From Geosiphon pyriformis uo1 (lineage: Eukaryota; Fungi; Glomeromycota), in assembly GCA_016748015.1 (NCBI GenBank), contig JAAOMT010000175.1, forward strand, positions 40,056 through 104,055: DNA of 64,000 nt. The letters run 5' to 3'. The notes under the pieces are model-generated. The model was not told where the DNA came from, made no database searches, and worked only from the letters and a program-made list of their open reading frames with translations. Below are positions 483 through 63,667 of this stretch, in pieces. Each line of letters begins with the position of its first letter. The stretch's first letter is position 1. Position numbers and translations under genes: made by a program.

Positions 483-1329
483 TGTTACTCATAAAAAGAA
501 ACAGATATAGCAGACCAATAAGAGAATAGTATTTAGCACATGAGCACATTGCTCAGCAATATAGAGCAATATCAGAAATCATGGCACATTGCTCAGCAAT
601 GTGGAGCAATGTCAGAAAACATGGCACATTGCTTAGCAATGTAGAGCAATATTAGAAAATTAGAGCACATTGCTCAGCAATATGAGCATTGCTCAAGAAA
701 TCATAGCACATTGCTCAGAAATAAGAGCAATCTCATAGAACATCAATTATGTATATATAGCAGTAGCATTAGAAGTAGAAAAAGCAGAATTCTGTAGTTA
801 GAAATCTTCTATTTTCACAAATATTAAATAAATAAATTATTTACCATTCAAATCCACTCTTTATTATCAACACACCATGTTGATAGCAATTGATATTTAA
901 CCATACTAGAACAATAGCTCTTGATCACAGCTATTGACAAATACTAACTTGCATATTGTCTTGGCTTATTTCTTTATTTTATTTTCTTTATTTTTTTATT
1001 ACTAACTCTATTGAGGATTAATGTGTGGAGTACTGACATCAGGATATAGCACTGGTAAAAGACCCAGGAATAAGAATAGGACACTTGATTGAGGATAGCT
1101 TACCAGGAAGAATACTGGCCATCAAGCTGAGAAAGAAATTAACAAAACTGTGGTTTTGGGAAGCTATTAATAAAACCATTGCAATTGAATTTCTGTTCAT
1201 TATACAAAAGACTCAACCAAAACCTTCAGATAACAATATCTTCAGATATTCCCAACAACATTATATTAATTGAGCACCAAGTTATGAGTTTGTTATTTGA
1301 TTTGAGACCCCAAATAATCACTTGTAACA
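483..1329 (+). repeat. 5' LTR of A (847 bp)
   Basis: TGTTACTC...TGTAACA; direct repeat of 17415-18162. Confidence 0.95.
541..735 (+). repeat. U3 tandem array of about 40-bp units with palindromic core ATTGCTCAGCAAT
   Basis: gcacattgctcagcaat...gagcaat...cagaaa repeated about 5 times; fewer copies in the 3' LTR. Confidence 0.85.
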
Positions 1330-1341
1330 TTTGGTGCTCCC
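1330..1341 (+). promoter_or_regulatory. Primer-binding site of A (TTTGGTGCTCCC)
   Basis: TGG motif 2 nt after the LTR-terminal CA; the same TTTGGTGCTC core follows the 5' LTRs of D and F, and a decayed version follows E. Confidence 0.85.
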
Positions 1342-3150
1342 TGTAAAGTATAATCTTACAGAAAACCAGCACCAACAACCTCATCCAAAAGTGGCAGAAT
1401 CAGAAAGCATAGGAGCAAACCATCTAGGATTCACAAAATTCTTATTTCAACATTATTGTCAACACCTAAGATTAAATTATAATCACATATCAGCAGAATT
1501 AGCCTTCAATTTCTATGTTAACAAGAGAATTGCATATTTGTTGAATACATTAGTAAATATTGAATCAGCAAGAGAAACTTTTTACAATGAATTAATTCAA
1601 AACACCAGCCTACCAACAAATCATAATTTCACATCCATCATTACTAAGATCAACAAAAAAATAAAATATCATACACAGCAAAGATACCCAATTACTTACA
1701 CAAGTAAAGGTAAAGAAAAACTACAAACACCAACAGTAATACCTCAAAGAATACAACCACCTACTTGGAAGAAAACAAAGGTTGAATCACCAACCAACTC
1801 ATTATACTATTATACATCTGAAAGTGCCATCAATATCTCATCAACAGGTGTGTCCACATCAAACATGACATCAGCATTTAGACAATTCCCATTTCAAAGC
1901 AAACAAAGGAAAGAAGACTTATTAGAACCATATGATACATATTTTGAAGGATTTAAATCATGATTGCCAATACCATCAGGATTTTGATCACTGCCACCTC
2001 AACCAGATTTCAAAACTATGAGTCCTTAAGAAGTCACAGAATTGGAAGGAGAACAGGAAGAAGAAGAAGAAGAAGAAGAAGAAGAAGAATCTGAGGATCA
2101 GAAATTTACTTACCAAAATCCAATCCCAAAAAACCTGGAATTTAAAACTCCAAACGTTCAAACTCTGAATTTTCAAGCTCAGCCAGATCAGAATGATCGA
2201 AACCCTGAGACAATTAATCAGCTGAACTTACCTTCAAATATTGTCATCAATCAACCACACATTGATCCAATAGCACAACCACTACTACAGCAACTTATCC
2301 AGCAACCAATTCAACATCCACAACAACAGCTTTAACTACCAATACAACAACAACCAATCATGCCAATGGCTTTTGCACCAATAGCAAAAATTGAGAAGTT
2401 CACAGGCAAAGAGGACGACGCCTAAGCATAGATTAATAATGTTGCCAAAGCCATCACCATAAACAATTGGGATGACGCAAGAACAATGCAAGTTATCCCA
2501 TATTTCCTAAAGGATACCACCGACTCATGGTATCATAGCTTGGCCCAGAAACCCCAAAACTTCAATGCATTTAAAATTGACTTCCTAAGATATTTCAGTG
2601 ATAATAACAGCATCAACTGCCTGGCAAGTATTTTTACCACCATAAAACAAGAGGACACAGAAGCAGTTACCACTTACTTAGGATGCTTCCACAGAAATCT
2701 GCACCAAATTCAAGCTATCCAAGCTGATTACTTTACAGCATCACAAATCTTAAATCAGTTCATCAGAGGCTTACACAATAGCATTCTTCAACGAGTACAT
2801 CCAATGCATCTGGTAGACCTTTCTACTGCAGTCACTTATGCTAGAGATTTTGAAGCTGCCGAGTTAGAAGCCAACTACGCCCAAGCTGTGAATCTAGTAA
2901 TGAATAGATCATCTGACTTGGATTCTAAACTAAAACAATTCAGTGATTCCATTAATCAGAAATTAGAGAAATACTTAACTGACAATTGCCCAATCTATTA
3001 ACCTCCACAATGACACAATAATCAAGGAAATGCCAATCATTTCCAAAATTAGTCGTGTCTTTCAATGTCCTCCAATCAGCCATGGCAGCAAGAGACACAT
3101 GTTTGCCACAACTGTGATAAACAAAAACACCTTAGAGCCAACTGCTGAGG
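1331..3150 (+). pseudogene. gag: gag of A with long N-terminal extension, poly-Glu linker, capsid-like region and zinc knuckle
   Basis: ORF pieces 1331-1963, 2042-2335 and 2486-3001; KFTGKEDDA, IKQEDTEAVTTYLGCF, LNQFIRGL; CHNCDKQKHLRANC (CX2CX4HX4C) at about 3104-3145; internal stops. Confidence 0.85.
2057..2089 (+). repeat. (GAA)n microsatellite encoding poly-Glu in gag
   Basis: About 11 consecutive GAA units. Confidence 0.9.
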
Positions 3151-4140: not shown

Positions 4141-4489
4141 ACACACCAGCCCCACTAATTGACTTGGAAGAAGAGAAGCCGAAACCCACCTAGAAAGCAT
4201 ACCAAGTGTCATGGGCCAATATCAATCATAATGAATTGCCATCAATACTCGCCTGGGACGACAATAATCAGGAAAAGGGAAAAAGAAAGGAAGAACTTAT
4301 CTGGAACACTAACCAAGCCTGTGAAATCAGCAACGGTTAAGAAGACTCATCAATCTGGAAGTGGGAGGAAAGCAATCAAGAAAAAGGGAAAGGAAATGAA
4401 GAAAACCAACTTAAAACCAACAAAACCACCAAAGCCAGCACTAGTGGCTGGGAAAAAATCTATTCAACTGACACTAAACCAGAGCCACC

Positions 4490-5135
4490 ATGTATTTCTT
4501 TCAAGTGTAAAGACTGCAACAAGAAGTTGTTCTCAATGGGAGCTTGGGTTGCACCAGACAAAGACTACTGGATGCACACCCATTACTATTGCAAACCATG
4601 CCACTGCAAACGCTACAGGTATCCAAAGAGACAAGACAAGTGGAACAATAAACCATGTCTTGCTTGTGGAGAACAACTGCTTAATGAAGGGATGTGGAAT
4701 GACATTTCTGGTTGAGAAAGAACATGTGATGCTTTGTGCCAGTACACAATCCTCATCAGTGACTGGATGAGTCATGGAACACCCATTACAGCAGTCTGGC
4801 ACTGAGCAATCTCTCGCTTAGAAGGTTATCCACACGATAAAGATGAAATCTGGTGAATGGCCAATGCCAAAGTAAAAAGCACTTTGTCCAGTGAAATTCT
4901 GGAGATCAAAAACAACTCTCTAGAACCAACAGACATTGTTTTGGTTCTCAACCCAGATGCTTTTCTCAACTTAGAAAACAGCCCAGAAGAATTCTATGAA
5001 CACTATCAAAATCTAGCACCCACAAAAAAAAAGCAAGAGCAACATTTGGAGAAAATCAATACCTGATTATGTGACCACTGTTTAATCCCATATGACTTCC
5101 AATTCTGTGATGATTGTGACCTCATTTACAATTCA
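4490..5135 (+). pseudogene. Cys-rich putative zinc-binding domain between protease and dUTPase of A
   Basis: CKDC, YYCKPC, PCLAC, TCDALC, LCDHC and FCDDC; homologous blocks in D, E and F. Confidence 0.7.
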
Positions 5136-5367
5136 CCACCACACATGATCTACACAATTCCAGAAGAAGAAGAACCAATCAGCAGCTGCATATTGAAATC
5201 AGAATCAGTTTTCGATTCTGATTTAAACTCTGACAACGATGACGATAAAAACACCAGTTCTAGCTCTATTCAATATAACAATAAAGATAATAGCAATTTG
5301 GACTCTGATTCAAACCCAGAAACATATATTACACTTCCTGATCTCACCAAGGAGCAGACCTTAAAAT

Positions 5368-5709
5368 GATTCAGTGATAATAATAAAGGGATCAAGCCAG
5401 AATATGCACATGATACTAATACCAGGTTTGACTTGAGATATCCAGGGAAAGATGCCATCAAATTAGAGCCACATTCACACACCTGCATTGATCTGAAAAT
5501 AGCATTGGAAATACCAGCAACAATTATGGTTCAACTAGCTTCCAGAAGTAGTTTAGCAAAAAGAGAAATTACTATAAGAGGAGGAATAATCAATGCAAGT
5601 TATGTAGAAAATATCATAACAATACTACAAAATGACTCAGAAAAGACCTATATTATAGAACCAAATGAAAAAATAGCACAGGTAATATTTTTGTCTCTGG
5701 TTAGAATAG
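5368..5709 (+). pseudogene. dut: dUTPase of A, motifs 1-4 (split by B)
   Basis: RFDLRYP (motif 1), ASRSSLA (motif 2), GGIINASYVENI (motif 3), EKIAQ (motif 4). Confidence 0.92.
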
Positions 5710-6365
5710 TGTTACAGATTGGAGTAACAAGCTAATGGATAGCAAAAGAAAACAGAATTGTAGGGTGATGGAAATAATCAAAGAAGAATTCAACTTTAAA
5801 GAGTAAATTGAATGAGTATGGATTTAATGTGCGAGATCAGTCTCATAAAATATCTCAGTCACTATTCTTTTCAAAGGTAACTGGGGAATCTGAAGGTAGA
5901 GGGATAGTCCGTACTGTCAACAATTAATCACTGTTGGTATAATTCTATGCCTTCATATCAGTGCTCTTAGAATTCAATATCAGGTATTAACTTGTGCTTT
6001 TCAGTCATGTTTATTTAAATAGTCTTCAAATACTACAATTTATTTAAACAGAAAAAGGCCAACAAGTAATCTTTTATCCTAAGATGTTTAGATACTTGAA
6101 GGTAGAGAAAGGGAAATTAGCGATAAGAAAGTGATTGAGATGAAAGTTGTTATTTTTATTTATTTGATTCTTGTCTGAAAGATGATTTTCTACAGCTAAG
6201 AGACTTATCGCTTATATATCTATTGAAAGTGGTCAATGATCAGGTCAACGGTCAGATTATTGATCAGGTCAATGATCACTATCTAAAAATAGGGTGGCTA
6301 ATTATATGACATTAGTGGCTAATACATATGATAACTAATAAAAACTATGGGTTTTAACCATAACA
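5710..6365 (-). repeat. 3' LTR of B
   Basis: TGTTA...TAACA; preceded on the minus strand by purine tract GGAGAGGATGA (about 6366-6376). Confidence 0.95.
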
Positions 6366-7028
6366 TCATCCTCTCCAAAGAGATTGAGCTCTGGCAAAAT
6401 CAAACTATTTATGGAATATTCTAATTGAAAGGTTTTATCTAACTCAAAACTAACTAGTTTGTTGAAGTTTTTTGTGAATAGAGTGTATAGTACTTGAGGC
6501 GAAATAAGCTTTGTATCCAAGAGACCAAATCTTTGTATAAGAGTTTTGGTTCTTCTTGCAATGGTCAAAACTCTTGGAACATTCAGACGTATAATGTCCA
6601 AAATTTCTACTTGTATCTCTGAAGTTGTTTTTTTTGTGAGCTTCATGTCTTTTATGATTTTACCAAGGTGACCATAGAGCTCTAGTTGTCTTTCATATGA
6701 CAAGTTTTTGTCTATGGGCAAGATTTCTTTAATTGTTTTTCCAATTGTGATGGAAGGTACAAGTATTGCTGCTGTTATGCTTTCCAACAGATACTTATCC
6801 ATTTTGCTACCAATTTTTTCTCTTCTGGTAGTTGTTTTCTTTGGTTTGATAACAGTATAAGTTCCACTGTTGTCAGTTATTGTGATCTGTTTTCCAATAG
6901 TCAGAGTAGCATTTGGATAGTTTTTGATTCAATACTTATGGAAAATATAGAAAGTGTTTTGAATGTTTTGATCCAAAAAATAATTGTTCATGTCGATTGA
7001 AGATACCTCTGTTTTGGGAATGATGCAT
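6335..7028 (-). pseudogene. ORF3 of B (unknown function, between integrase and 3' LTR)
   Basis: Open 155-aa portion at 6335-6802; probable ATG at 7028, 4 nt after the integrase stop; ELYGHLGK...TIARRTKTL...LYTL pattern resembles ORF3 of A, D and E. Confidence 0.7.
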
Positions 7029-12685: not shown

Positions 12686-12702
12686 CCTCACAAGAAGCAC
12701 CA
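12686..12702 (-). promoter_or_regulatory. PBS of B (TGGTGCTTCTTGTGAGG)
   Basis: 6 nt from the 5' LTR; its complement CCTCACAAGAAGCACCA resembles a tRNA 3' end (elongator Met or Ile-UAU type; not verified). Confidence 0.8.
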
Positions 12703-12708
12703 CTTTTA

Positions 12709-13364
12709 TGTTATGGGTTGGAGTAACAAGCTAACGGATAGCAAGGGAGAACAAGATTGTAGGGTAATGGAAATAATCAAAAGGGAATTCAACTTTAAAG
12801 AGCAAATTGAATGAGTATAGATTCAATGTGCAAGATCAGTCTTATAAAATATTTCAGTCACTATTCTTTTCAAAGGTAACTGGAAAATTTGAAGATAGAA
12901 GAATAGTCTGTACTGTCAACAATTAATCACCACTGATATAATTCTATGCCTTTACATCAGCACTCTTAGAATTCAATATCAGGTATCAACTTGTGCTTTT
13001 CAGTCATGTTTATTTAAATAGTCTTCAAATACTACAATTTATTTAAACAGAAAAAGGCCAACAAGTAATCTTTTATCCTAAGATGTTTAGATACTTGAAG
13101 GTAGAGAAAGGGAAATTAGCGATAAGAGAGTGATTGAAATAAAAGTTGTTATTTTTATTTATTTGATTCTTGTCTGAGAGATGATTTTCTACAGCTAAAA
13201 GACTTATCACTTATATATCTATTGAAAGTGGTCAATAATCAGGTCAACAATTAGGTTAATAATTAGGTCAATAATCACTATCTAAAAATAGAATGGCTAA
13301 TTATATGACATTAGTGGCTAATACATGTGATAACTAATAAAAACTATGGATTTTAACTGTAACA
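12709..13364 (-). repeat. 5' LTR of B
   Basis: Direct repeat of 5710-6365, same length. Confidence 0.95.
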
Positions 13365-15278: not shown

Positions 15279-15347
15279 GAATGTTTCAACCCAAAAAAAA
15301 AAAAATATAACAAAACCAAACCAAACTCAATGAAAATATAACAAAAA

Positions 15348-16724
15348 ATGAACACCCAAAAATACCAACAACTCAAATATTATATAGATACTCGACAGTT
15401 TAAGGAGAAATTATCTCAATCGGAACAAAATAGTATCAAACAACAATCAAAATACTTTATTACACACCAAAACATACTTTATCGGAAGAATAGAAAAGAC
15501 CCAGATCAACCAACCAGAGTAGTTACAGAGCCAGAAAAAGAGACAGTACTATTTAACATGCACTCAGATCTAACAGCAGGACATTTTTATAAAGAAGTAA
15601 CTATGGAAAGAACTAGAAAAAAATACTACTGGCCATCAATATATTTAGACATTATCCAATATGTTCAAAATTGTGATGCTTGTCAAAAAAGAGGAGGAAG
15701 CAGACCCTGTGAACCACTGAAACCAATCAAAATAGGACAACCATTCAATCACATCAAAATTGACTTAGTTAGACTATTAACAATTACCAGCAGAAAGAAC
15801 AGATACATTGCAGTAGCCATAGACTATCTCACTAAATGGCCAGAAGCAAAAGCAATTCAAAGAGTGGATGCAGAATCCGTTGCCAAATTCGTCCATCAAG
15901 ATCTGATTTGTTGACACAGATGTCCAAAAGAATTATTATCAGACCAAAGAACTCACTTTGTAAACAGAACACTAGCAGAATTGAGCCAAAGATTCGGAAT
16001 TAAAAGACCACTATCATCACCATATTATCCACAAACAAATGGTTTAGTTGAAAGATTTAATAGAACATTGTGTAAAGCAGTTGCTAAACTCAGCCAAGAA
16101 AACCAAGATGAATGGGATTTGTTCATACCATCAGTACTATTTGCTTATCGGACAATAAAGCAAAATACTACACAAGCAACACCATTTAAATTAGTATATA
16201 ATAGAACAGCAACAATACCAGTTGAGATAGAAGTTAACACATATCCAACTGAATCAATAACAGAAAAAAATTTCCAGAAAATACTGTTGAGAAGAACATA
16301 TGACTTAATAGAAATATTGGAAAACAAACAAAGAAGAGCAGCTGATAATATTCAAAAGTCACAAGAAAAACAGAAAGAAAGACATGATAGTCAACTACCA
16401 GACAAACCAGTGGAGTTCAAGATTGGAGACAAAGTACTCTTACATCATACCAAAATGGAAAAACAATAGAGTGGAAAATTTGACCCCAAATGGAATGGAC
16501 CATTTCACATAGAAGAAATTCTTGAAAATGGAGCTTATAAATTAAGATGGGACAACAAAATCTTAGCCAAAGCAGCACATGGTGATCAACTGAAACCATA
16601 TCACCATACAGTGTCACTATTCACCAATAACATTCCACAATTAGGAGTACAATAAATACTAGTTCAACCAGATGAGATTCCACAAGATCTAAAACCAATC
16701 ATAATCATTGGACCAAACATGTAA
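15348..16724 (+). pseudogene. Integrase of A (stand-alone ORF, no chromodomain)
   Basis: ATG at 15348; HSDLTAGHF...CDAC; IDLV, DYLTKWPEA, SDQ, PQTNGLVE; KWNGPF. Confidence 0.93.
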
Positions 16725-16765: not shown

Positions 16766-17401
16766 ATGGAAATACCAGATCATATTCACACCATAGTTCA
16801 ACAATTATTCCAGGCCTTAAATCAACAATCTTTAGACATGGAAGTTATTGTTAACAACCAAACAATTTGCTATCAAAACACCAAAAGAAAGATAAAGAAT
16901 ACACCATATTAGTGAGTACCAAAGAATAATAAAAACTGGTCAGACAACATAATAGAAAAAGTAAAAAACACTTTTGGGAAAATACTTATTATAGCACCAA
17001 CAGAAAAACTTACAAAAGAGAATTGGAAGCAATGGACAGAACAACTTCCAATATCATATTGCTACTATTAGCTAGGTCGAAAGTTGAATATTTAGAAGTT
17101 GTATATCAACAAATTCAAGAGAGTATTTAACCAAAACATAATACAGCAAATTAAAAATTTTATTGGGAAAAAAACAAACTCAACACTACATGTGAGAACA
17201 ATTTATTGACTGCACAACATATTTCAGAATTATTCAGAAATACTGTTACACTCAGACATGGAAACCATAACTATTAACCAATGGGGAAGAATGAACAATA
17301 CACAAGTAGAAAATGTGAAGAACAGAGTCGAACAAACAATACTTGAAAAAAAAGTATTAGAATTAATTCAAAATGAAGATTTCAACAGAGCTCAATATTA
17401 A
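16766..17401 (+). pseudogene. ORF3 of A (unknown function)
   Basis: Manual translation MEIPDHIHTIVQQLFQAL...YCYY*LGRKL...VRTIY*LHNIF...ITINQWGRMNNTQ...FNRAQY*; homologous to ORF3 of D and E. Confidence 0.7.
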
Positions 17402-17414
17402 AAGGAAGAGATAA
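17399..17414 (+). promoter_or_regulatory. Polypurine tract of A
   Basis: AAAAGGAAGAGATAA abutting the 3' LTR. Confidence 0.85.
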
Positions 17415-18162
17415 TATTACTCATAAAAAGAAAACAGATATAGCAGACCAATAAGAGAATAGTATTTAGCATATGAGCATATTGTTCAGCAATGTAAAGC
17501 AATGTCAGAAATCATGGCACATTGATCAAAAAATCATAGCACATCACTTGGAAATGGGAGTGATCTCATAGAACATCAATTATGTATATATAGCAGTAGC
17601 ATTAGAAGTAGAAAAAGCAGAATTCTGTAGTTAAAAATCTTCTATTTTCACAAATATTGAATAAATAAATTATTTACCATCCAAATTCACTCTTCACTAT
17701 CAACACTCCATGTTGATAGCAATTAATACTTAACCATACTAAAACAATAGCTCTTGATCATGGCTATTGACAGATACTAACTTGTGTATTGCCTTGGCTT
17801 ATTTCTTGATTTTATTTTCTTGATTTTTTTATTACTAACTCTTTTGAGAATTAACATGTGGGGTATTGATGTCAGGATATAGCACTGGTAAAAGACCCAG
17901 GAATAAGGGTAGGACACTCAATTGAGGATAGCTTACCAGCAAGAATACCGGCCATCAAGCTAAGAAAGAAATTGATGAAACTATGGTTTTAGGAAGCTAT
18001 GGATAAAACCATTGCAATTGAATCTCTGTTCATTATACAAAAGACTCAACCAAAATCTTCAGATAACAATACCTTCAGATATTTCCAACAACATTATATC
18101 AATTGAGCACCAAGTTATGGGTTTGTTATTTGATTTGAGACCCCAAATAATCATTTGTAACA
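17415..18162 (+). repeat. 3' LTR of A (748 bp; initial TG mutated to TA)
   Basis: Repeat of 483-1329 with fewer U3 repeat units. Confidence 0.95.
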
Positions 18163-23100: not shown

Positions 23101-23463
23101 TGGTGTGACTAACACTCTGATATTATGTAGGCTCTTATTGAACATTAATTTGTTGAATGTTTTTTGAGCTAGAAATGACATTGTTGTTGCTAATGTATTG
23201 GGTTTGAAGTGCTATTTGGGTGCTATAGGTGCTTTGAGAAAATTTGGTATTATTTTTACAAACCAGCTCTTAGATTATTAGAGTGCATGTTTTACATAGA
23301 GTAATTTTTGCAGATAGAAAAAATTGGATCTCAAAAGACTGGTTCTGGTTGGTTTAGTCTAATAATTAAGTTTATTAGAGATGGCAGTTTGACTAATGAA
23401 AACTTTTTTGCTTTTCATCTTATTTCTGATTGTTGTTTAAATAGTTTTGACTATGTTAGTAAC
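20102..23463 (+). pseudogene. LINE ORF2: APE endonuclease and reverse transcriptase
   Basis: CNVHGIN, TETKL, LGEDFN, IDFIFVS; NTRLIVL, LVLQNMYKTY, LWRIFYD, FMNNT (decayed F.DDT). Confidence 0.85.
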
Positions 23464-24413
23464 TCTTTTTTTGAATGTTGTTAATGTTGATTTGCTGTGA
23501 ATTCATGTTCTCAGAAAGAAGTTGGACCTCTAGTAACTGAATTTATCTTCAAATTATCTCTTATAATTTGAACTGTTGGGCTTATAAGTGGAATGGCCAA
23601 TTCCATATCAGTTGCTTTGTGTAGTTATGTTGTAGTAAACATCAACTTTTTCCCAGGAATTGCTTGTCTGGAAGCTCACTAAAAATGTGTAGTTATTTTA
23701 CTGTAAAAGTCAACTCTTCTACAAGAATTTTACCTGTAGGCTACCCTAATAATTATAATAAAAAAAGAAAAAAAAAAGAAAAAAAATATAAAAGAAATAG
23801 AATTGTGTCAAAAAAAACGTTTTCTATCCAGGCCTGGAGTTATTAACAGATTATTGAAATTGGTAGCTAATCAATTTCAAAACGTTAGTTGTGTTGAAAA
23901 AATTTCAAGTATAATAATCAAAGGATTTGGTTTTCGAATATTTAATTTTTATTTGAAATGTGTAAAAAGTGATTTGTTCTAATTAAGATATTTAAAGTGA
24001 GATACTATGTTAAGATACTATGAGAAGATACATTTTCTTGAAGAGAGAAGCTCTTTTTTTATACAACTTGTTGTAGTACTAGTCTTTGAACCTGCACTTT
24101 TCTCTTTGCTATAATTTGGGTGAACTAAAGATACATTTCGGCAAACTACAAGTTATTTCACTGAACTATTGATTATTTCAGCCAATTTCTATTAATTTCG
24201 GCAAATTTTGACTATGTTAAATGGTTTAAGATATTGTGTAATTTGATCATCTTAATTTCTAGAGTACAAATTGAATTATTGATTGAGTAATGATATTTGA
24301 TAATTTGAATAAATAATAAGTGATATTTGAAATAATGATAATATATGCTAATTAATAATAGGAATTATGAGAGTAATTTTATGCTAATTAATAGTTAAAT
24401 TCTACTGGTAACA
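23464..24413 (-). repeat. 3' LTR of D, missing about 19 terminal bp
   Basis: Aligns to 32392-33344; lacks the terminal tattactggaggtttttgg segment. Confidence 0.9.
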
Positions 24414-24424
24414 TAATCTCTTCC

Positions 24425-25100
24425 TCAAGACTGAGCTCTGTTGAAATTCAAGCACTATCTGTGATATTAAGATAGTGGTCCAAGATAATTGAAGTGATCT
24501 GGTCTGAAAATTGTTGAAATTTCAGTTCTGTGAGTTTGCCAATATGTTGAACTTTTATTGGTTGCAGTATTGAATTTTGTAGGACATTTTTGCAAGTATT
24601 GAACAAATCATAAAGTCTAAAAGCTGTTCTAAGTTTGTAGTGAGTGTTTGTTGGTCCAGCTACTGTTTTAAATTCATTGTGAATTTGTTTTTGTATAGCC
24701 TCAAAAGTGATGTTGGTTGCTTCAAGTTCCAGTTTTCATTTATAAAGTGTTTTTCCAATATGAAAATATCTATATATTAAAGTATGTTTATTGTTCTGTT
24801 TATTAAAAAATAGTAGAAGTTTTTGTTAAATTGTGACATTTGGTGGGATGTCAATAGAGACAATTAAAAAGTTTTTTTTCAGTGTTTGCTTCAAAAGTTC
24901 TGGTAATTTATTTTCAAAGTGACCTCTTGTTTTTTTTTATAGGAGTGATAATTCTGAGAATTATTTACTACTGGGGCTGTGGTTTCTTTTTGAATGTAAT
25001 TAATTTGACTTCCATTAATCGTTATGAATAAGTCAGGAAGTGTTTTCAAAGCTAACATTAATTTTTGGAATATTTGTTGAATATTTCGGGGAATAATCAT
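24425..25100 (-). pseudogene. ORF3 of D
   Basis: MIIPRNIQQIFQKL...ITING...YRYFHIGKTL...LRTAFRLYDLF...HIGKLTELKFQ...FNRAQS*. Confidence 0.72.
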
Positions 25101-26704: not shown

Positions 26705-28100
26705 TTAATCTTGTTTCATTCTTAAAAAGCTATCAACATTAGTGTATAGTTTTTCTGGTTTGTAGTGTACAATATATTTGTAGTTCATTAGGAAATTATT
26801 CCATTAAGACTGTTTGGTATTTTGTTCAGTCTTCTTTTTATTGAGCCATTTGAAACCAATATTGTCAGTTATAATGTCAAATTTTTTTCTATTCTTTAGA
26901 TATTGTTGAAAATATTTAATAGCCCAAATAACTGTAATAGCTTCTAATTTAGTTGAACCATATTTGAGTTCTGTTAGTTTGAGTGTTCTGCTGACATAGA
27001 CAATGACTTGCTCTTGGCTATTTTCATCTAATTGTGATAAAATGGCACTGAATGCTATATGTAAGGCATCAGTGGCTAGTTAGAATCATTTGTTGAAGTC
27101 TGGGCAAGCAAGAACTGAGACTGTTGTTAATTTTGTTTTGAAAGTATTAAAGACTTTTTGTTGTTCTTTAGTCCATTGATATGGCATGTTTTTGTTGATA
27201 AAATAATTGAGTGGTTTGGCAATTTCTGAGAATTCTTTTATGAATTTTCGATAGTAGGAGACTAATCTTACAAATCTTCATAGCTCTGTGGTATTTTTGG
27301 GAATTTGAAAGTTTTTGACAGCACTGATTGTTCCAGGATTTGGTTTGACTCCATCTTTGCTAATAATGTGTCTAAAAAAGATTAAACTTGTTTTTTCAAA
27401 GTGACATTTCTTAATGTTCAACTTTAATCTTGCTTTCCATAATCGTTAAAAAACTTCTCACAAGTGAATAAAATGAGCTTCAAAGCTTGGGAAGTATACA
27501 TCAGTGTTATCAAAATAGACAACTACTGATTGTCACAAGAGTCTTTTATATACAACATTCATGAGTTATTGAAATGTTGTTGGTGCATTGCAAAGGCCAA
27601 AAAGCATAATATTGAATTTATAGTTTTCTTCTTGAGTGGTAAATGCTGTTTTGGGTCGATCTTTTGGATCTATTTTGACTTGTCAGTATCTACTTTCCAA
27701 GTCTAAAGTTGAGAAGAACTTGGCTTTTCTTAAAGTGTCTAACATGTTATCAATTCTTGGAAGAGGGTAGGCATTTCCAATTGTGACACTATTCAATTGT
27801 CAATAGTTAACACAAAATCTGATTTTTTCATTTTTCTTTTTGATAAGAACTACTAATAAGGCCTATGCACTTCTTAATGGTTGAATCAATCCATTATTGA
27901 GCATTTTTTGGACTTCTTCTCTGATGAATTGGTGGCTGGCAGGTGGTACTTGATAAGCTTGTTGTCATTTTGGTAGAACATCTTCTGTGTGGATCTGGTG
28001 TTGAACAATATCAGTTTTTCCAAGATAATTGTTGTCTTTTGCAAATATATTTGCAAATTCAGCTATCAGTTGTTTCAATTGTCTTTGTTGTTGGGGTTTT
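26705..28100 (-). pseudogene. pol: RT and RNase H of D
   Basis: RFCVNY, FGLCNAPTTFQ, VYFDN, TDAL, NVDSFLRMKQD*. Confidence 0.9.
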
Positions 28101-28199
28101 AAGAGACCCATGTTGATTTGAAAGAGTTTTTCTTCCAAAAGGTGGTAGTTTTTAGTAGTAAAAATGATGTTTGGATTTGGAAGTAGTGTATGTCTTATA

Positions 28200-28975
28200 A
28201 TTTCGATAAAATTAGAGACAATTTGAGGGTTTTTATCTTGAAAAATGTTACTGTATATGATTCCAATCTCTAATTTGTTCAATAAGACAATAGGGTAATT
28301 ATTGGGATTGTAGAATATAACTTGAAATTTTTTTATTCTTTTGGGAATATAAACATTTGGGATTAAGATTTCATGCTTTAAACAGATTTGTTTATTGGAT
28401 TCAAAAATTTGTTGGGTATTGGTGGGTTTTGAGCAAGTGTAAATTTCATAATGTTCTCCAAAAGATAAAATAATAGTTGATTGGAGAAGTTGAAGAATCT
28501 GGTGGGATTCATTTTGTGTATTGAGAGCTATGTTTACTGGTACTGTAAACCATCTAATTAAACCAAAACTTTGCATCCCTCTTTCACTTTTTCCCAATTG
28601 TTCTCTGTTGTTTACTGATTGTAAACCCGAAATGTTGATTAAAAGTAGATAAATTACTTGGACAATCTTTTCAGCATGTTCAATCCTGAATAATTTGTCT
28701 GTTTCATTCTGCAACATGATAGTAATGTCTTCAGTATATTCTGCATCTATAACTCCTCCTCTAATGTTGATTTCTTTGCTTGCTAATAATGATCTGAATG
28801 CAATTTGAATCATTGCTCTAGGTAAAATTTCAAGAGTGATTTTGAGATTGATTTTTGTCAAAGACTTTGGTTGGAGAACCAAAGTATCTTTTCCTGGGTA
28901 TCTTAGATTATATCTAACATTAATTTCGTGTGCTTTTTCTGGTTTTATTCCTTGGCCATGGTTGTCAAAATATTT
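28200..28975 (-). pseudogene. dut: dUTPase and second dUTPase-like domain of D
   Basis: YNLRYP, FRSLLA, GGVIDAEY, EKIVQ, SERGMQSFG; then IFYNPNNYPIVLLNKLEIG. Confidence 0.88.
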
Positions 28976-29099
28976 AAGTTGTAGAGGTAATTGATTTTTA
29001 AGAAAATAGATGGAAGTACTTGGTAGTTTTTCTACCAGTTCAAATATTCCAAATTCGATTTTATTTTTATCATTTTCATCTGATAGAGGAATGCTAAAA

Positions 29100-32000
29100 G
29101 CATAATATTCTAAACACCATTGGTTATCACAAGACATAATACATTCTTCACATAATTAAATGTTCAATTGCTCTAATTATTGAATTTAAGCTTCTTTGGT
29201 TGGGTATGTATAACTTGCAATTTGGTGGTAGGTTTCTACTTCATTTTTATAATCAAATCTAATTAATTCTATAGTATACTCAATATATTCAGCTTCTTTC
29301 ATTTGGTGGACATCTTTTTGTATGGCTCTATTGATTAATGCTATTGCTAAGTCAAAAATCATTTCAGCATTATGAAGATAGTGATAGAGTTTATTGAGAA
29401 TATTGTTGTATGCTGCATCAAATGGTGTTTTTTTTTTGACTTTTTCCGAAATTAATAGAGCATATTAACAAGTTTGATTACATATTCCTCCTCTCATTGC
29501 AACATCAATCCAGTTGCATTCTTTTGGTAGCATATCTCCACATATAAGGCAAGGTGTGTTGTCCTATTTTCCACTTTTTTTTGGAAATCCAAATCGTTCT
29601 CTATGGCATGTTTTGCAAAAGTAGCAGGTGCAAGTTTTATATTTCTCTTCTGAAAAAATACATGCTCTCATTGATAAAAGTTTTTTGTTGCAATTTTTGC
29701 ATTTAAGTAGAATGTAAGGTGGTTTTTTTTGTGGTTCTGGTGTAGAATACCTAACTTTTTTCTATTCTCTTAATTCTTCAAAAATCTTTTGTTCTGTTTC
29801 CTCAGCCCAATTGGATGTTGATCCAAGTGCCATATAAGTTTCAGTAAGTGGCATTTCCTTCTTTTCCTCAAATTCAAACACTAGGGCTTTTTCTAATTGT
29901 TTGTTAAAAGTGTTACACATAGCAGGTACTATGGTGTATTGTTCTTGATATGAGATTTTAAGTTCCTAAGTTTCTCAATCTAACTTTGCATTGGTCTTAA
30001 GAAGCCAATCATTTCTGATGAGAGCTTGGTATTGAGATGCATTCATGACTAGAACTTTAACTGAAATGGTGATTTCATCAATAGTGAATGAGAAATTGTC
30101 AATTTCTCCTACTGGTGTCTTTTTTATATTATTTGTTGTAATAATTACTGTTTGGGCTAGTCTGTTAACATTTTGATTAAGTTGTTGCATTAATTGGTAG
30201 ATGATAATACTTCCAGCAGATCTACTGTCTAGAATTAATCAAATGGGCTTTTTTTTTACTGTAGCTTTAGTGTATATGGCAGTAATAGCTTTTTGCTCAT
30301 TAACTGCTGCATTGCTAAGCAAGAATGGTGATTCATTGGCTTCAAATTCGAATCGAAAGATATCTGACAGGTTGGCATTTTGGGCAATTTGGGCTGATGG
30401 AATGATATTGTTAAAAGGGTTTGATCTTAATGCTATAACTTCATCTTCAAAAAGTACAGATTGTTGAAAATTCGATCTTTCAGGCATTGTAAGATAACTG
30501 GGTTGAGTGTAATAGTGATTGGGTCTTTGCTGACCAGAATTTTGAAGAACCAACTGGTTGTTTGGATTGTTTCTGTTGTTGTTATTCTGAAATTGATTTT
30601 GGGGTGTAAATTGGTTATGTTGAACCAATCTTCTGGCTGGTATTTGATATTGTTGAGTAGGTGGTGTCTGATATTGCTGAATTGGTAAAGGTTGCTGATA
30701 TTGTTACTGCATTGGTTGTGAAGCTGGTTAATAGTAACTGTTTTGATTTTGTGGTCTTGGTGAATAATAAGTTGGTGGTGGAGGTTGGTAATAAGATTGT
30801 TGTAGTGAAGAATAACATTGATTACTCCTGTTTTGTTGGTCTCTCTGTAATTTCTTGCAATCTTGTTTCCAGTATCCTGAGATTTCACAATAATAGCAAT
30901 TTTGAAATTGGTTGTTGGATGGTAATCCAAAATTGTTTTGATTGCGTTATTGTGGGGGTTGGTATCTTTGTGGTTGTTGCTGCTATTGTTGTTGATTTGT
31001 AAAGTAGCTTTCAACCTTTTTTGTGAGTTGGTTTATTTTTTTTTCAGCTGCTGAGCTGGTTTTTCCAATAGCTAGATTGACAAGTTTGGTGTGGTTTGCT
31101 TCTTCCATTGCTATTTTATAGTTTTTTGCATGTCTAATGACAGTTGCTAAGTCTTCTAAAGCATGTGGACAAACTTTTTTATGAGTTTGTCTTTTAATTT
31201 TGCTATGAACTGATTCAGAATCTGGGCATTGAAATAGTAGTTATTGGTTTCCAATTGTCAAATTTGTCTCAAAAGTTTATTGAATCTTTCAAGATAGGTC
31301 ATAACAGTTTCAGATGTTTTTTGTTTAATATTTTGAAAACAATTGTGAAGAGTGATAGAGGTGTTGTTGTCAGTGAATTGTTATAAAAAAGCATCTTTAA
31401 ATGCTTGCCAGTTTTCAAATGGTTTTTCTAAGTTTTCAAACTATTCTTCTGCAGTTCCTTGGAAAAAGTATGAGATTACTTTAAGCATTTTTGCTGTATT
31501 TCAACCATTTGCATCTCCTGCTTTCTAGACTTTATCAAGCCATTCTTGTGAACTGGTATCATTGTCTTCACCAGTGAATTCAAGAATCTTTGCAATATAA
31601 GCAGTTGTCATGTCTTCTTTATTTTTTGTGGTTTCTTCTTGTTTTGATTCAGTTTCTTTACTTTTCAAGTTTTTTGAATGATTACTTTCATTTTCCTGTA
31701 AGTAATCAATAATATTGGTGCTTGTTGATATGGATTTCTGCAGTTGAGTAGGATTTTTAGGTGACTGAAAATCTTCTGGTCTGGAAAAATGGTTAAATGG
31801 TGAATTTAGTGTTTGTAGTTAAGCAAGTAAAATTAAAAATAGTATAATAGAAAGTGGTAATTTGACACTGGTTCTTTGTTCAGGTGTTTGCAAGTATTTG
31901 ACAGTTGTCTTTGGTAGTATTGGAGTGTTTAAGGTGATTCTTGAGTATTGTTTCACTTTTTGTTTGCCTTTGTTGCTTGTTTCTGTTTTTGATTTAAAGT

Positions 32001-32372: not shown

Positions 32373-33344
32373 TATTACTGGAGGTTTTTGGTCTTTTTTT
32401 TTGAATGTTGTTAATGTTAATTTGCTGTAAATTCACGTTCTCAGGAAGTAGTTGGACCTCCAGTAACTGAATTTATCTTCAAATTATCTCCTATAATTTG
32501 AACTGCTGGACTTATAAGTGAAATGGCCAATTTCATACCAGTTGCTTTGTGTAGTTACATTGTAGTAAATGTCAACTCTTTTCCAGGAATTGCTTGTCTA
32601 GAAGCTCACTAAAAATGTGTAGTTACTTTACTATAAAAGTCAACTCTTCTACAGAAATCTTGTTTGTAAGCTACTCTAATAATTATAATAAAAAAAGAAA
32701 GAAAAAAATAAAAAAAATGTCAAAAAAATAGAATTGTGTCAAGGAAAACGTTTTCTATTCAGGCCTGGAGTCATTAACAGTTTATTAAAATTGGTAGCTA
32801 ATCAATTTCAAAACATTAGTTGTGTTGAGGAAATTTCAAGTATAATAATCAAAGGATTTGGTTTTCGAATATTTAATTTTTATTTGAAATGTGTAAAAAG
32901 TGATTTGTTCTAATTAAGATATCTAAAGTGAAATACTATGTTAAGATACTATGAGAAGATATATTTTTTTGAAGAGAAAAGCTCTTATTTTATACAACTT
33001 GTTGTAGTACTAGTCTTTGAACTTGCACTTTTCTCTTTGCTATAATTTGGGTAAACTAAAGATATATTTTGGCAAATTACAAGTTATTTTACTAAACTAT
33101 TGATTATTTCAGCCAATTTCTATTAATTTCGGCGAATTTTAACTATGTTAAATGGTTCAGAGTATTGTGTAATTTGATCATCTTAATTTCTAGAGTACAA
33201 ATCGAATTATTGATTAAGTAATGATATTTGATAATTTGATTAAATAATAAGTAATATTCGAAATAATGATAATATATGCTAATTAATAATAGGAATTATG
33301 AGAGTAATTTTATGCTAATTAATAGTTAAATTCTACTGGTAACA
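32373..33344 (-). repeat. 5' LTR of D (972 bp)
   Basis: Followed on the minus strand by TTTGGTGCTCTT; repeat of 23464-24413. Confidence 0.93.
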
Positions 33345-34684: not shown

Positions 34685-35614
34685 TGTTACAGGTGATTAT
34701 TTGGGGTCTTAAGTCAAATAACAAATCTGTAACTTGGTGCTCAAAAGCTATTTTGCATTGTTGATGATCTGAAGGTTTTGTATCTAAAGGTTTTGTTGAA
34801 GTCCTTTGTATAATGAACAGAGATTCAATAGTTGTTTTATCCATAGCTTCTCAGACTTGCAAGTCTGTCAATTCTTTTCTCGGCTTGGTGGCTGGCAATC
34901 CTCTGGTAAGTAATTCGTATCTTCTGTACGTGTTCTACCCACTTGCAAGGGTCTTTTACCAGGCAATTCTTGACGTTAGTAATCAGCACTTTTAATCAAT
35001 TGGTTAGTGCACAATAACAAAATCACAGAAAATAAAGAAAATAAAAAAATATAAAAAAAAAAAAGAAATAAGCCAAGGCAATTTGCAAGTTAGTATTCTA
35101 TCAATAGCCATAATTAAGAGCTATTGTTCCAATATAGTTAAGTATCAGTTACTATTAACACTTCATGTTGATAGTAAAAAATGAATTTGATATAGTGAAT
35201 AATTATTTATTTGAGGATTGTGGTAACTAAGCTAAGAATTCTTGGTGTTGATTCTTTTTTTTTTTTTTTGTAATTTTAATAATTATGATTTTGCAAGTCT
35301 AATTGATTTTATGAGTCTAATTGACTCCACAAATCAATTGACTCTAAGTCCCATTGACTAATTTTCTAACTTCTGATACTACTGCTATATATACATATTT
35401 GAGATTCCTCAATTCTTCAATTTTTTATGTCAGGAATCCTGGAATTTCTGGAATTTTGCAATTCCTTTGAGAGGAATTCTAGAATTCTGGAATTTTGCGA
35501 TTCCTCATGTGAGAATCCTGCAATTCTTGGAATCCTGGAATTCCACATTTACTATATCTATCTATGATTGGCTAATTTATATGCTAATATACTTTCTATA
35601 TTTTATGAGTAACA
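34685..35614 (-). mobile_element. Solo LTR related to families A and F
   Basis: TGTTAC...TAACA; starts TGTTACTCATAAAA on the minus strand like A; flanks ATAT/ACAT. Confidence 0.88.
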
Positions 35615-37347
35615 ACATTTAATACATAATATTTGTTCTTATATAAAGAAAAATTTCGAATAAATGTTTGATAAAATTATTTTTTGCTCTTTTATAAATT
35701 GTTTTTATATAAAAAAAATTGTTAATTAATTAATTAGTTCTATAAAAAATGTTCTTTGTAAAAAGTTGTTCTTTTATTAAAAAATTTTTATAAAGATCTA
35801 ATTATAATAGTTAATTTAAATTTAATTTTAATAATAAAAACAAAATTTTATTAAATTCTAAAATAAATACTTTTAAAATAAAAATAAATAAATATTAACT
35901 ATAATATTATAAAATACAAAAATATCTTTTTTATTTTTTATTTAAATTAAGTTAATTTGCTTTTGTAATTATTAAAAAACGTTAAAAATTATTCTTAAAA
36001 AATTATATGTTTTAAAAGCTAATAACTTGGATAATTGATTATAAAAAAAATTTAATATATTAATTTAAATAATTTAAAAGATAATAAAAACATAGACAAT
36101 ATAATATTATGTTATATTTGAATTATTACTTTTAATTTATTAAAATTATTATATTTATTTATAATTAATTATATAAGTAATGATAATATTAAAAAAAAAA
36201 TTTACCAATTTTTGGTATAATAAATACCAAAATTTTTTTGTTAATTAAAAAAAAAGAGTTTTTGGTTTTATTAAATTGTTTGTTTTGAATATAAACATAT
36301 TAGCTATTTTTGAAAAAATCTAAATAATAAATTAAAAATTATTAAGAAATTATTTATTAAATAAATTGTTTTAAAAAAACTTTAATTTTTTTATGATTTT
36401 ATAAAATAATTTAATTTATATTTACTTTTAAATCTAGTTTTAATTAGACTAAAAAATTAATTATTAATAAAAAAATCTTAATGAATACTAATCTAAAACA
36501 GATTAATAATAGATTAAATTAAGAAGTAATTATTAAAAAAATCTCTGTTAATCTTCTTAAATTAATATTAAAATTAGTATTTATTAAATTTAATAAGATA
36601 AAAACAATTAAAATACAACTAATTGGTCTTTAACAAAAAGTATTAATAAAATTTAAGAGTGTTAATATTACTACCTTAATAGTTTTTAAATAATTATAAA
36701 AATTTTGTACATGTTACTAAAATTAATATAAACAAATAAATATAGAATTTAAAAAACTAATATTATGCTTTTTTATATATGCTTTTAATATATACTATAG
36801 TTTATATTTTTTTAAATCTAGTAATATCATATAATAAAAAAACTTGTATTATAATATGTAATTTAATTACATATATATAAGCTTATTGTACTATAATATG
36901 TTTTAATTTGACTGTTATTAAAGATGTTATTATTTATTTAATTTTAATTTACAAAAATATAAGCTTATATTGAACTGGATTTATATATTTTTCTAATTTA
37001 AACAGATAGTATTTTATATATATATATACAAAAAAACAAGTTTCTGTTTTTTGTCCAGTTTTTTTAATAGTAAAACTTGAATTTTAATAGTCAATAATAC
37101 AAATTTTAATTTTTTTTATAATTTATATTATAACAAAAGACTTATTTAATGTTTTAAATTATAATTTTATGGCTTTGGCTTTAAATTCATATCTAAATGT
37201 TTTAAAACATTTTTTAGAACTTTTGATTAACTGAATTTTCAAAATTATATACAAGTTAAATTTTTTTTATTTATCTTTATATTTGACAAACATTAAAAAA
37301 AATATTTTTTAATATAATATACTACTTTTATATATAACTATTAATAT

Positions 37348-38181
37348 TATTACAGATAGATTCTTGAAATAATAAAGTTTTTTTTGTAATTTAGTGTTTA
37401 AGTTGATTACTGCTGTAATTTAAAAGTTTTAGTAATAAAATTTTTTATATAATAGACAAAAATTTACTGTAAAAATAGATAATACTTAATAATTAATTTA
37501 TTCTGATGTTTATATTTTTTTGGTAAACATTTCTAGTTCTTATAATTATATTTACACTCTTTTTGGTATTTTTTATCAAGCAATTCTTAATGTTATAATT
37601 TCAGTATTTTTATTTTTAATTAATTAATAAAACAAAAAAAAACAAATAAAAACATAATAATAAAATTAGAAATTAATATTTTATTAATAATTATAATTAA
37701 AAACTATTATTCTAATATTATTAAGTTAATGTTATTAATACTAATAGCATTAATATAAATAAAATTTAATTTTAATAAATCAAGTTTGAATTTATAAATT
37801 AATGAATTTAGACATAATTAATTAATATATTTATTAAAATAATTATAATTTAATCTAAAATAATAATAAAAGACTAGATTGGTCTTTAAATAAACTTATT
37901 TGTTTTTAAAATAGTCTGTTTTTTTGGTTTTTAATATTTTTGCTATATATATATAAATTTTTATTATTTAAGATTTCTGAAATTTCTACAATTTTTTTGA
38001 ATTATTGCTGAAATTTTGGTATTTTTGCTGATATTTTTAGAATTTTTAAAATTTTTAGAATTTTTGAAATTTCTACTGGTATTTTTAAAATTTTTGATAT
38101 TATATATTTTAATAATTTTTTACTTTAGTATTGGTTATTTATACTATTATTATTATTATTTTGTTTTTTATATAAATAACA
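37348..38181 (-). mobile_element. Old solo LTR (A/F-like)
   Basis: TATTACAG...TAACA with perfect ATAT/ATAT TSD; colinear with 34685-35614. Confidence 0.7.
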
Positions 38182-38268
38182 ATATTTTTTTAACAAAACT
38201 TTTAGCTGTATTTAATATAATAAACAAGTTTTTTCTATTGTTTATAAGTAGTTTAAAAGTTTTAATAC

Positions 38269-39264: not shown

Positions 39265-39619
39265 ATAGTTAAAATTGGTAGTCTAAAAATTAAATTTTTG
39301 GTTTTAAAAAAGTCATTAAAACAGTTTTAAACAAACTTATTTTTTTTGTTTAGATAATAGTATAATATTTTATTTTTAATAAGTAGTTTAATCTGAAAAA
39401 TAACTACTATAATATAAAAAACATAAATATTTTTGTCAAGCAGAAAAATATTATTAAATAGCATAAAAGTTTGAATAATAATATTTTAATTATAACTGAA
39501 ACTAAGTTTTATTCAAGTGTAAATTAATTTATTACAAATAAAATTTAATAAAATATAAGTTTTTATTTTAAGATTAGATTTAAACTTTTTAAATACAGAT
39601 ATTGTAATAATTATTTTTT

Positions 39620-54138: not shown

Positions 54139-54910
54139 ATGAATTTTTTAGATCAAATTCTGCAACTCTCAAAACAACTATTTAATACAATTCAACAATT
54201 TACCACTTAAATAGAAATTACTATTAATAAAAAAGAGATACAATACAAAAACAGGAGTAGAAAAAAGATGGGTAAGAGTTTAATTAAAACTAAATAATCT
54301 CATCCCTATAAACAATCTTCTATTTTAGTGGTCAGTACTTTGCACAACAATTAAGGAAAGAGGAGGACAAAAAAAAAGAAAGAAATACATTTTGGACAAA
54401 GCTCAATACAATTAAGAAGAAGAAAAAGATAACAGAAATAAATACATGTTAGGCAAAGCTCAAAGAAATTAAAGAAGCTTTGAGCAGGCAAATGTTAAAA
54501 CCAGTAACAGAAAAATAGATAATAGAAAACTTTAAAGTATGAAAAAAAAACTGCCACTAGTCTACTGGTTTTATAAGATTAGTGAACAACTAAAATTGAG
54601 TACATTATACAAAAATTTTAACCATCAGACATTTAACAAAGCAGCTTTTAAACAAGTAGAAAAATTCATAAAAAAAAGCAACATAATACTAAATTATAAA
54701 GCAGCATACTGCTTATACTTAGCATTCAAATATTGACCAGCCATACTACTAAACAGTTCATTAACAACTATTATAATCAACAATATAGGACAAATAACAA
54801 ATAATCAATTTAAAAACTTACAAAAAACAATACTCAATGCTATAATTAAACACTACACAAAGAACACAGATTTTACAAATACATACAATTTCACACAAGC
54901 TTAATTTTAA
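54139..54910 (+). pseudogene. ORF3 of E
   Basis: MNFLDQILQLSKQLF...EITINK...YWFYKISEQL...YKAAYCLYLAF...NIGQITNNQF. Confidence 0.68.
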
Positions 54911-54924
54911 AAAAAGAGGGATAA

Positions 54925-63451: not shown

Positions 63452-63667
63452 ATATACAGTTAGTGTATATCCTCCTGTAATTATGAAAAATGTAGGAAGG
63501 CTAATCTGTATCCTCCTTCTGGGTTGACCTATCGCTTGATAGTAGTGTTAGACAGAATGTTTTTGCAATCACTCTTTCCATCAATTTGCTGGTTCTTTGG
63601 AATCTAACAATAGCCAAAAATAATAAACTGACATGTTCTGCTTGCTAAAGCAATTACGTTTGTAAAG

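What the first reader, a model, noticed from the sequence alone, without database searches (positions are those of the whole stretch)
16766..17401. Conserved uncharacterised third ORF in the env position
Seen: A (16766-17401), B (7028-6335), D (25100-24425) and E (54139-54910) each have an ORF of about 210-260 codons between integrase and the PPT. Shared features are an N-terminal amphipathic helix followed by [IV]T[IV]N, then Y/F-x-x-[LI]G-x-x-L, [RK]-[TA]-A-[YF]-R-L-Y-x-x-F and I-G-x-[LI]-T-x2-Q. B is the most divergent. There is no signal peptide or transmembrane segment, so it is not an envelope. It recalls small helical proteins expanded in AM-fungal genomes (recollection, unverified). 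Inference: an ancient accessory gene, possibly a nucleic-acid-binding, targeting or anti-silencing factor.
Basis: partly seen in the sequence, partly recalled or inferred. Interest (0 to 1): 0.85.

Follow-up and report, generated by a model that had tools for sequence, protein, structure and literature searches.

The report
Third gene in fungal Gypsy retrotransposons
Gypsy-type jumping genes, most likely of the fungus Geosiphon, carry after their integrase a small extra gene of no known family that is broken in the four copies here but intact in relatives, and it likely encodes a nuclear helper protein predicted to act on the element's own RNA, a job not yet tested.

Summary
Largely real. Four Ty3/gypsy elements each carry a separate sense-strand coding region between integrase and the PPT. 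Close hits point to Geosiphon pyriformis as host. None of the four window copies is open: they carry stops, and D and E have frameshifts. Intact relatives exist: a 211-aa A paralogue, twenty 218-aa B copies, and a 230-aa ORF3 behind RT-RH-IN in a metagenome contig. A, D and E are clearly homologous (0/1000 shuffles). They keep about 20-35% amino-acid identity although synonymous sites are saturated, which indicates long purifying selection. B is only a probable remote homologue, and it starts at 6991, not 7028. The protein has no transmembrane segment and no match in Pfam, NCBIfam, PHROGs, PDB or BFVD. AlphaFold predicts a two-part, mostly helical fold with no conserved catalytic set. Five of eight families keep a PY-type nuclear import motif in a disordered linker. 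Best guess (about 40%): a nuclear regulator of the element's own RNA, analogous to Cer1 CERV. Expression and binding are untested. The scan noted similar third ORFs in other genomes; I could not tell whether they are this family.

The parts
16766..17401 (+). ORF3 of element A: 211 codons, 5 in-frame stops (decayed copy)
   Evidence: intact 211-aa paralogue P0003 at 77% identity; HMM 7.6e-72
16886..16909 (+). Basic R/K/H-X2-5-PY motif (putative PY-type nuclear localisation signal) in the predicted disordered linker of ORF3
   Evidence: 5 of 8 families, same place; pLDDT below 50 for residues 42-54; consensus as in the abstract of PMC2408616. Function inferred
15342..16724 (+). Integrase end of pol of element A (H2C2, rve, then a C-terminal region that scores weakly as SH3_Tf2-1 in relatives); stops 41 nt before the ORF3 ATG; no chromodomain hit
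   Evidence: SH3_Tf2-1 hits in relatives
17380..17400 (+). Conserved DNA motif just before the PPT (core AGCT), shared by A, B, D, E and L001 and read in two frames
17401..17414 (+). Polypurine tract of A
17415..18162 (+). 3' LTR of A (5' LTR 483-1329; 91.4% identical)
483..1329 (+). 5' LTR of A, followed by the PBS
6335..6991 (-). ORF3 of element B (nested in A): 218 codons, 1 stop, runs through the PPT into the LTR; probable remote homologue
24388..25100 (-). ORF3 of element D: frameshift near 24950 plus stops; likely ends inside the LTR
54139..54910 (+). ORF3 of element E: frameshift(s) and several stops

Best explanation
ORF3 is a separate gene behind integrase in a fungal Ty3/gypsy lineage, conserved at the protein level across divergent families and broken in the four copies here; it likely encodes a non-enzymatic protein predicted to enter the nucleus through a PY-type signal and to act on the element's own RNA (export or stabilisation, as Cer1 CERV does). 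Shown: position, own ATG, homology of A/D/E and of two metagenome lineages, synonymous saturation with retained protein similarity, no membrane segment, no match to known families or folds. Predicted: an N-terminal helix plus beta-hairpin, a basic disordered linker, and a roughly 130-residue helical domain. Inferred: expression from a subgenomic or spliced RNA or by reinitiation, Kap104/transportin import, binding of nucleic acid through the conserved basic helix (residues 139-153), and the RNA-export role itself. Probability that it was a functional accessory gene: about 0.93. Probability of this particular mechanism: about 0.4.
For: Selection. For 8 well-aligned pairs pS is 0.66-0.74 and pN 0.43-0.52, a rough dN/dS of 0.2-0.5. 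The ORF frame gave the best score in 9 of 10 pairs. DNA-guided alignments give pooled identity of 0.49/0.60/0.51 at codon positions 1/2/3, p=1e-7 with non-independent pairs. Linkage. L001 reads RT-RH-IN, intact ORF3, motif, PPT, LTR. L002 starts with the same integrase tail. 55 of 217 fetched proteins include an integrase part in their gene model, and it lies upstream of ORF3 in 55 of 55. Co-descent: B is the outlier in both integrase (42-46% against 55-57%) and ORF3. Nuclear and non-enzymatic: the PY motif sits at residues about 41-55 in families A, E, F, L001 and P0157/L002, where shuffles give it anywhere in 2-27%, inside the low-pLDDT linker. pI is 8.4-9.8 in the Geosiphon families. Conserved columns are hydrophobic, aromatic, Gly and Asn plus one Arg, with no Asp/Glu/His/Cys set. 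[quoted passage not shown]
Against: No RNA run was found, so expression is unknown. The PY motif was noticed after the fact, is absent from families G, D and B and from 4 of the 13 sequences scanned in the motif-bearing families, and the families are related. There is no Arg-rich motif; NES-like patterns are generally no more frequent than in shuffles, although one recurs at the same place in 5 of 10 sequences, inside the folded domain. The two metagenome proteins are acidic overall (pI 5.4 and 5.9). No conserved splice acceptor was seen upstream by eye, and the TATA-like sites in 5 of 6 spacers are at chance level. Within family B, 17 of the 40 listed variants (40 of 81 shown) are synonymous against 34% expected, p=0.17, so present copies show no selection signal. 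dS is saturated and protein-guided alignment inflates position-2 identity; only 3 of 10 DNA-guided pairs are individually significant. CERV is described as a large three-domain protein made from a spliced mRNA; no sequence comparison with CERV was run.
Confidence: 0.4

Rival explanations
1. ORF3 is an anti-silencing factor: a nuclear protein that binds the element's DNA or a host chromatin or RNAi protein and lowers methylation of its own family, as VANC does for plant MULEs.
For: Strong CpG depletion in the elements (o/e 0.02-0.21) implies methylation pressure. Rhizophagus TEs are highly CG-methylated and produce small RNAs (10.1101/2021.03.30.436303, passages). ORF3 diverges about twice as fast as integrase at non-synonymous sites, as arms-race proteins do. 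LTR elements cover 41.2% of the G. pyriformis genome (PMC11952901, passage).
Against: No similarity to any chromatin reader, demethylase or known suppressor in Pfam, PDB or fold searches. Faster divergence than core enzymes is unspecific. The copies are heavily CpG-depleted despite carrying the gene.
Confidence: 0.2
2. ORF3 travels with the pre-integration complex, helping nuclear entry or choosing insertion sites in place of the chromodomain that chromoviruses carry at this position.
For: No chromodomain hit at the integrase end in A, B, D or L001. A PY-type import motif would suit cargo import in a fungus. Nested insertions in the window fall in other elements.
Against: It is a separate ORF in another frame, or 160-320 nt away from pol, so it is not a fixed integrase fusion. 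The database fusions join at varying points, as gene-model artefacts do. No fold match to chromo or reader domains. Nesting is expected in a TE-dense region.
Confidence: 0.2
3. ORF3 is a self-restriction or packaging cofactor acting on Gag or particle assembly in the shared cytoplasm of a coenocytic fungus.
For: Small, helical and non-enzymatic. Copy-number control proteins exist in Ty1 (recalled, not checked).
Against: No significant similarity to the elements' own Gag (HMM scan; one weak tblastn piece at E 0.004). The nuclear-type motif points away from the cytoplasm.
Confidence: 0.12
4. The region is a captured or neutral sequence without function, kept only by linkage to the PPT.
For: All four window copies are broken. 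B-family variants look near-neutral. The last 10-20 codons are constrained by a DNA motif, not by the protein.
Against: Similarity over 140-200 residues is confined to the ORF frame, at saturated synonymous sites and in separate lineages. The alignment yields a confident fold (pLDDT 79 against 36 for the single sequence). Intact ORFs exist in L001, P0157 and P0003.
Confidence: 0.05
5. ORF3 is a degenerate envelope or movement protein.
For: It occupies the env position.
Against: No transmembrane segment, 0-3 Cys with none conserved, and no match among predicted viral structures.
Confidence: 0.03

Closest known systems
CERV of Cer1 (C. elegans Ty3/gypsy), PMC10309623 (abstract, outline, passages and section 15 read)
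   Same: [quoted passage not shown] The authors note that many such 3' ORFs are of unknown function.
   Different: CERV is large, has three domains with a Cys loop and a G-like domain, and is completed by splicing. ORF3 is 211-245 aa with its own ATG, no conserved Cys and no Rossmann-like fold. It is an analogue only; no direct sequence comparison was run.
Sense additional ORFs (aORF-3S, 'env-like') of plant LTR retrotransposons such as Athila and Bagy2, PMC7264820 (first of three parts read)
   Same: [quoted passage not shown]
   Different: Those often have transmembrane domains; this one has none, lies in a fungus, and matches no Pfam family.
ORF3s of bdelloid rotifer LTR retrotransposons, PMC5408684 (passages read)
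   Same: Small (some 210-230 aa) family-specific third ORFs, in lineages of which three encode dUTPase, as elements A and D do here.
   Different: The rotifer ORF3s are env, GDSL, DEDDy, coiled-coil or TM types; none of these was found here.
VANC anti-silencing proteins of plant MULE/VANDAL transposons (passages in PMC13547354)
   Same: Fast-evolving, lineage-specific accessory protein of a transposon in a methylating host.
   Different: Different TE class; VANC derives from MAIN/PMD-like proteins; no such similarity was found here.

Membership tests
Ty3/gypsy LTR retrotransposon (host element) | LTRs, PBS, PPT, gag, and pol in the order PR-RT-RH-IN | tested here: met
   4-bp target duplications with one transition each at A, B and E
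Sense additional ORF (aORF-3S / ORF3) | [quoted passage not shown] | tested here: met
Sense additional ORF (aORF-3S / ORF3) | Present across copies and families and kept by selection | tested here: met
   within-family test inconclusive
Sense additional ORF (aORF-3S / ORF3) | Transcribed and translated | not testable with these tools
   no RNA holder listed
Retroviral/errantiviral Env and env-like ORFs | Signal peptide and transmembrane anchor | tested here: not met
   maximum KD19 of 1.31 or less in 11 sequences; hydropathy only, no dedicated predictor
Retroviral/errantiviral Env and env-like ORFs | Fusogen fold or family match | tested here: inconclusive
   no hit in Pfam, BFVD or PDB; absence from a list does not exclude
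Rev/CERV-like RNA export proteins | Nuclear import signal | tested here: inconclusive
   PY-type motif in 5 of 8 families; localisation untested
Rev/CERV-like RNA export proteins | Arg-rich RNA-binding motif and leucine-rich export signal | tested here: inconclusive
   no conserved Arg-rich motif; NES-like matches near shuffle level, one at a recurring position
Rev/CERV-like RNA export proteins | Required for export of unspliced genomic RNA; oligomerises | not testable with these tools
   needs experiment; the homodimer prediction could not be run
Chromovirus integrase chromodomain | Chromodomain fused in frame to integrase | tested here: not met
   separate ORF, no Chromo Pfam hit; predicted fold mostly helical
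Enzymatic ORF3s (GDSL, DEDDy, 2OG-dioxygenase) | Conserved catalytic residues and family match | tested here: not met
   no conserved Asp/Glu/His/Ser set across 7 families; no Pfam or NCBIfam hit at cut-off
   no named non-Geosiphon hit; weak Atlas feature hit 0.94 to Mucoromycota clusters, recognition below the tool's threshold

The most novel reading that the evidence does not exclude
ORF3 founds a new protein family with an undescribed fold. It is the nuclear regulator that let this gypsy lineage keep exporting or expressing its RNA under CpG methylation and RNAi and so drive the LTR invasion of the Geosiphon genome. Some relatives carry a second accessory gene in tandem, and the protein may recognise the conserved motif next to the PPT.
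Probability: 0.15. Interest if true: 0.78.

Novelty: new variant of a known kind. Interest (0 to 1): 0.5.

Why it matters
Non-env third ORFs of LTR retrotransposons are common and almost all lack a known function; CERV is one of the few worked out. This is a compact, foldable and apparently undescribed example from an early-diverging symbiotic fungus whose genome is reported to be 41% LTR sequence. Intact natural versions make localisation, RNA-binding and structure experiments straightforward. It also shows that well over a hundred Geosiphon 'hypothetical proteins' are transposon ORF3 copies or chimeric gene models, which matters for claims about gene-family expansion in that genome.

Full report
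Setting. The window is a nest of decayed Ty3/gypsy LTR retrotransposons (Pfam gag, protease, RT, RNase H and integrase hits; repeat map). Element A (+) has LTRs at 483-1329 and 17415-18162. B (-) is nested in A, with LTRs at 5710-6365 and 12709-13364. D (-) has matched LTR stretches at 23463-24413 and 32393-33344, and E (+) at 44033-45006 and 54924-55910. LTR pairs are 91, 92, 93 and 84% identical, and CpG is depleted to 0.02-0.21 of expectation, so these are old, mutated copies. Every named close hit is Geosiphon pyriformis (8 of 8; 120 of 120 listed), so the host is most likely that fungus or a close relative (inference). PMC11952901 (passages) reports that LTR sequence covers 41.2% of that genome.

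Observation. In each element a same-strand coding region lies between the pol stop and the PPT. None is open in the window: A has 5 stops, B has 1, and D and E have frameshifts and stops. Intact relatives exist. P0003 (211 aa) is 77% identical to A. 129 proteins match B among 356 candidates, and 20 of the 120 listed are exactly 218 aa; this fixes B's start at 6991, since the ATG at 7028 is out of frame. A, D and E are homologous: scores of 88, 168 and 102, with 0 of 1000 shuffles reaching them, and a family HMM finds exactly these three in the window.

Element B is less clear. It fails against A and E, reaches 2/1000 against D, and fails HMM and profile-profile tests. It does align end to end with the metagenome ORF3 P0177 (score 95, 0/500, best of 10 comparisons). 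With the motif-coded tail removed, 11 of 21 B copies stay at 2/300 or better; the window's own copy does not (67/300). I call B a probable remote homologue.

Range and linkage. An unindexed phmmer over 1.84 billion representatives gave 54 hits. Of 28 looked up by exact sequence, 26 are Geosiphon and 2 are unnamed metagenome proteins. A profile search gave 54 hits among 7,992 scored candidates, 53 Geosiphon and 1 metagenomic; it missed P0157, so its reach is limited. The hits fall into at least six Geosiphon families (A, B, D, E and two more that I label F and G) and two metagenome lineages, at 17-36% identity among the non-B families. A metagenome scan gave 2 loci from 592 pattern matches. L001 reads RT-RH-IN, a 317-nt AT-rich spacer, an intact 230-aa ORF3, the same pre-PPT motif, a PPT and an LTR start. 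L002 reads the same integrase tail, a spacer, an unrelated 128-aa ORF, then ORF3. Of 217 fetched proteins, 55 include an integrase part, upstream of ORF3 in all 55. These fusions join at varying points and are gene-model artefacts, but they show adjacency. No named homologue from another AM fungus, virus, phage or prokaryote was found. The Atlas hit to Mucoromycota clusters is a weak lead only.

Selection. In eight well-aligned ORF3 pairs pS is 0.66-0.74 (saturated) and pN 0.43-0.52. Integrase in A, D and L001 has pN 0.26-0.28. Rough dN/dS is 0.2-0.5, but dS is unreliable and protein-guided alignment is biased. Two controls agree with selection: the ORF frame scores best in 9 of 10 pairs, one only marginally, and DNA-guided alignments show more identity at codon position 2 than 3 (0.60 against 0.51 pooled over 10 non-independent pairs, p=1e-7; 3 of 10 significant alone). 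Against this, variants among present B copies are not enriched for synonymous changes (17 of 40 shown, of 81; expected 34%; p=0.17), as expected if most copies are dead. B is the outlier in both integrase and ORF3, consistent with inheritance along with pol.

The protein. With a 34-row alignment AlphaFold2 gives mean pLDDT 79 and pTM 0.65, against 36 for the single sequence. The model has a helix and beta-hairpin (residues 5-38), a disordered linker (42-54), a helix, and a helical domain (about 84-203, pLDDT mostly 82-94). No fold or family match was found; single domains were not tested separately. There is no transmembrane segment, and across seven families the conserved columns are Y98, Y100, G104, L107, N138, R148, L149, Y150, F153, L160, I168, N171 and G174. 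That is a structural core plus one basic helix, not a catalytic site. A basic R/K/H-X2-5-PY motif occupies the linker in five of eight families (A, E, F, L001, P0157/L002) and is absent in G, D and B; shuffles give it anywhere in 2-27%. It matches the PY-NLS consensus given in the abstract of PMC2408616 (search listing only). I noticed it after the fact, and the families are related. Most Geosiphon versions are basic (pI 8.4-9.8); the two metagenome versions are acidic overall but keep the basic linker. No Arg-rich motif or clear export signal stands out.

A caution on the C-terminus. A DNA motif with an AGCT core lies just before the PPT in A, B, D, E and L001. A and E stop right after it in one frame; B, D and L001 read through it in another frame into the LTR. 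The shared last residues therefore reflect a cis element, not protein conservation. A hairpin is supported only in L001.

Mechanism. Shown: an inherited, selected, soluble, non-enzymatic-looking third gene. Inferred: it is made from its own ATG by an unknown route (no promoter or splice signal stood out; no RNA data), enters the nucleus, and acts on the element. [quoted passage not shown] I give an RNA-level regulator of that kind 0.4, anti-silencing 0.2 (host methylation and small RNAs documented in Rhizophagus, passages), pre-integration-complex import or targeting 0.2, Gag-level control 0.12, no function 0.05 and env 0.03. A homodimer prediction could not be run because the queue was full.

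Comparison and novelty. It is a member of the known class of sense additional ORFs (PMC7264820, first of three parts; PMC5408684, passages). It is not env, not a chromodomain and not one of the enzymatic ORF3 types. The protein family appears undescribed in the searches made, but the Geosiphon genome papers and their supplements were not seen. The scan's own notes list similar third-ORF findings in other genomes; look-ups by sequence and by related place found no look-alike, so I cannot say whether they are the same family. Verdict: new variant of a known kind, real, function open; interest 0.5.

Noticed in passing
L002:425-811: A second accessory ORF (128 aa; cluster of 3 unnamed proteins) lies between integrase and ORF3. 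It has no Pfam or NCBIfam hit and is absent from the window. One member's contig has the same length (19,119) as that of P0157, which suggests the two-ORF layout occurs in more than one assembly.
   Followed up: partly
window 17380-17400, 6375-6395 (-), 24425-24445 (-), 54895-54915; L001:3085-3105: Conserved DNA motif immediately before the PPT across families whose integrases are only 42-57% identical, read in two frames; probably a cis element for plus-strand priming or RNA handling.
   Followed up: partly
window 4341-5735 and 27968-29155: Elements A and D carry dUTPase in pol upstream of RT; A also has Cys/His-rich segments between protease and dUTPase with no convincing Pfam match. A four-term literature search found nothing.
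   Followed up: partly
window 1328-1963: A 211-codon frame upstream of the gag core with no Pfam hit; it looks like an N-terminal Gag extension (helical part plus low-complexity linker).
   Followed up: no
window 1330-1350, 12690-12708 (-), 45007-45025: PBS sequences start TGGTGCT or a decayed form in A, B, D and E. I recall this as a tRNA-Ile type; not checked.
   Followed up: no
window 34685-44033 and 55910-58775 (-): A fifth element related to A, interrupted by E and other inserts, appears to have lost integrase and ORF3; a D-like solo LTR sits inside E at 52273-53234.
   Followed up: no
NCBI Geosiphon gene models (P0003-P0226): Many 'hypothetical proteins' are ORF3 copies or chimeric models joining ORF3 to integrase, gag or unrelated frames.
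   Followed up: partly
window 62833-63547: Six overlapping open frames on both strands, typical of a low-complexity repeat.
   Followed up: no
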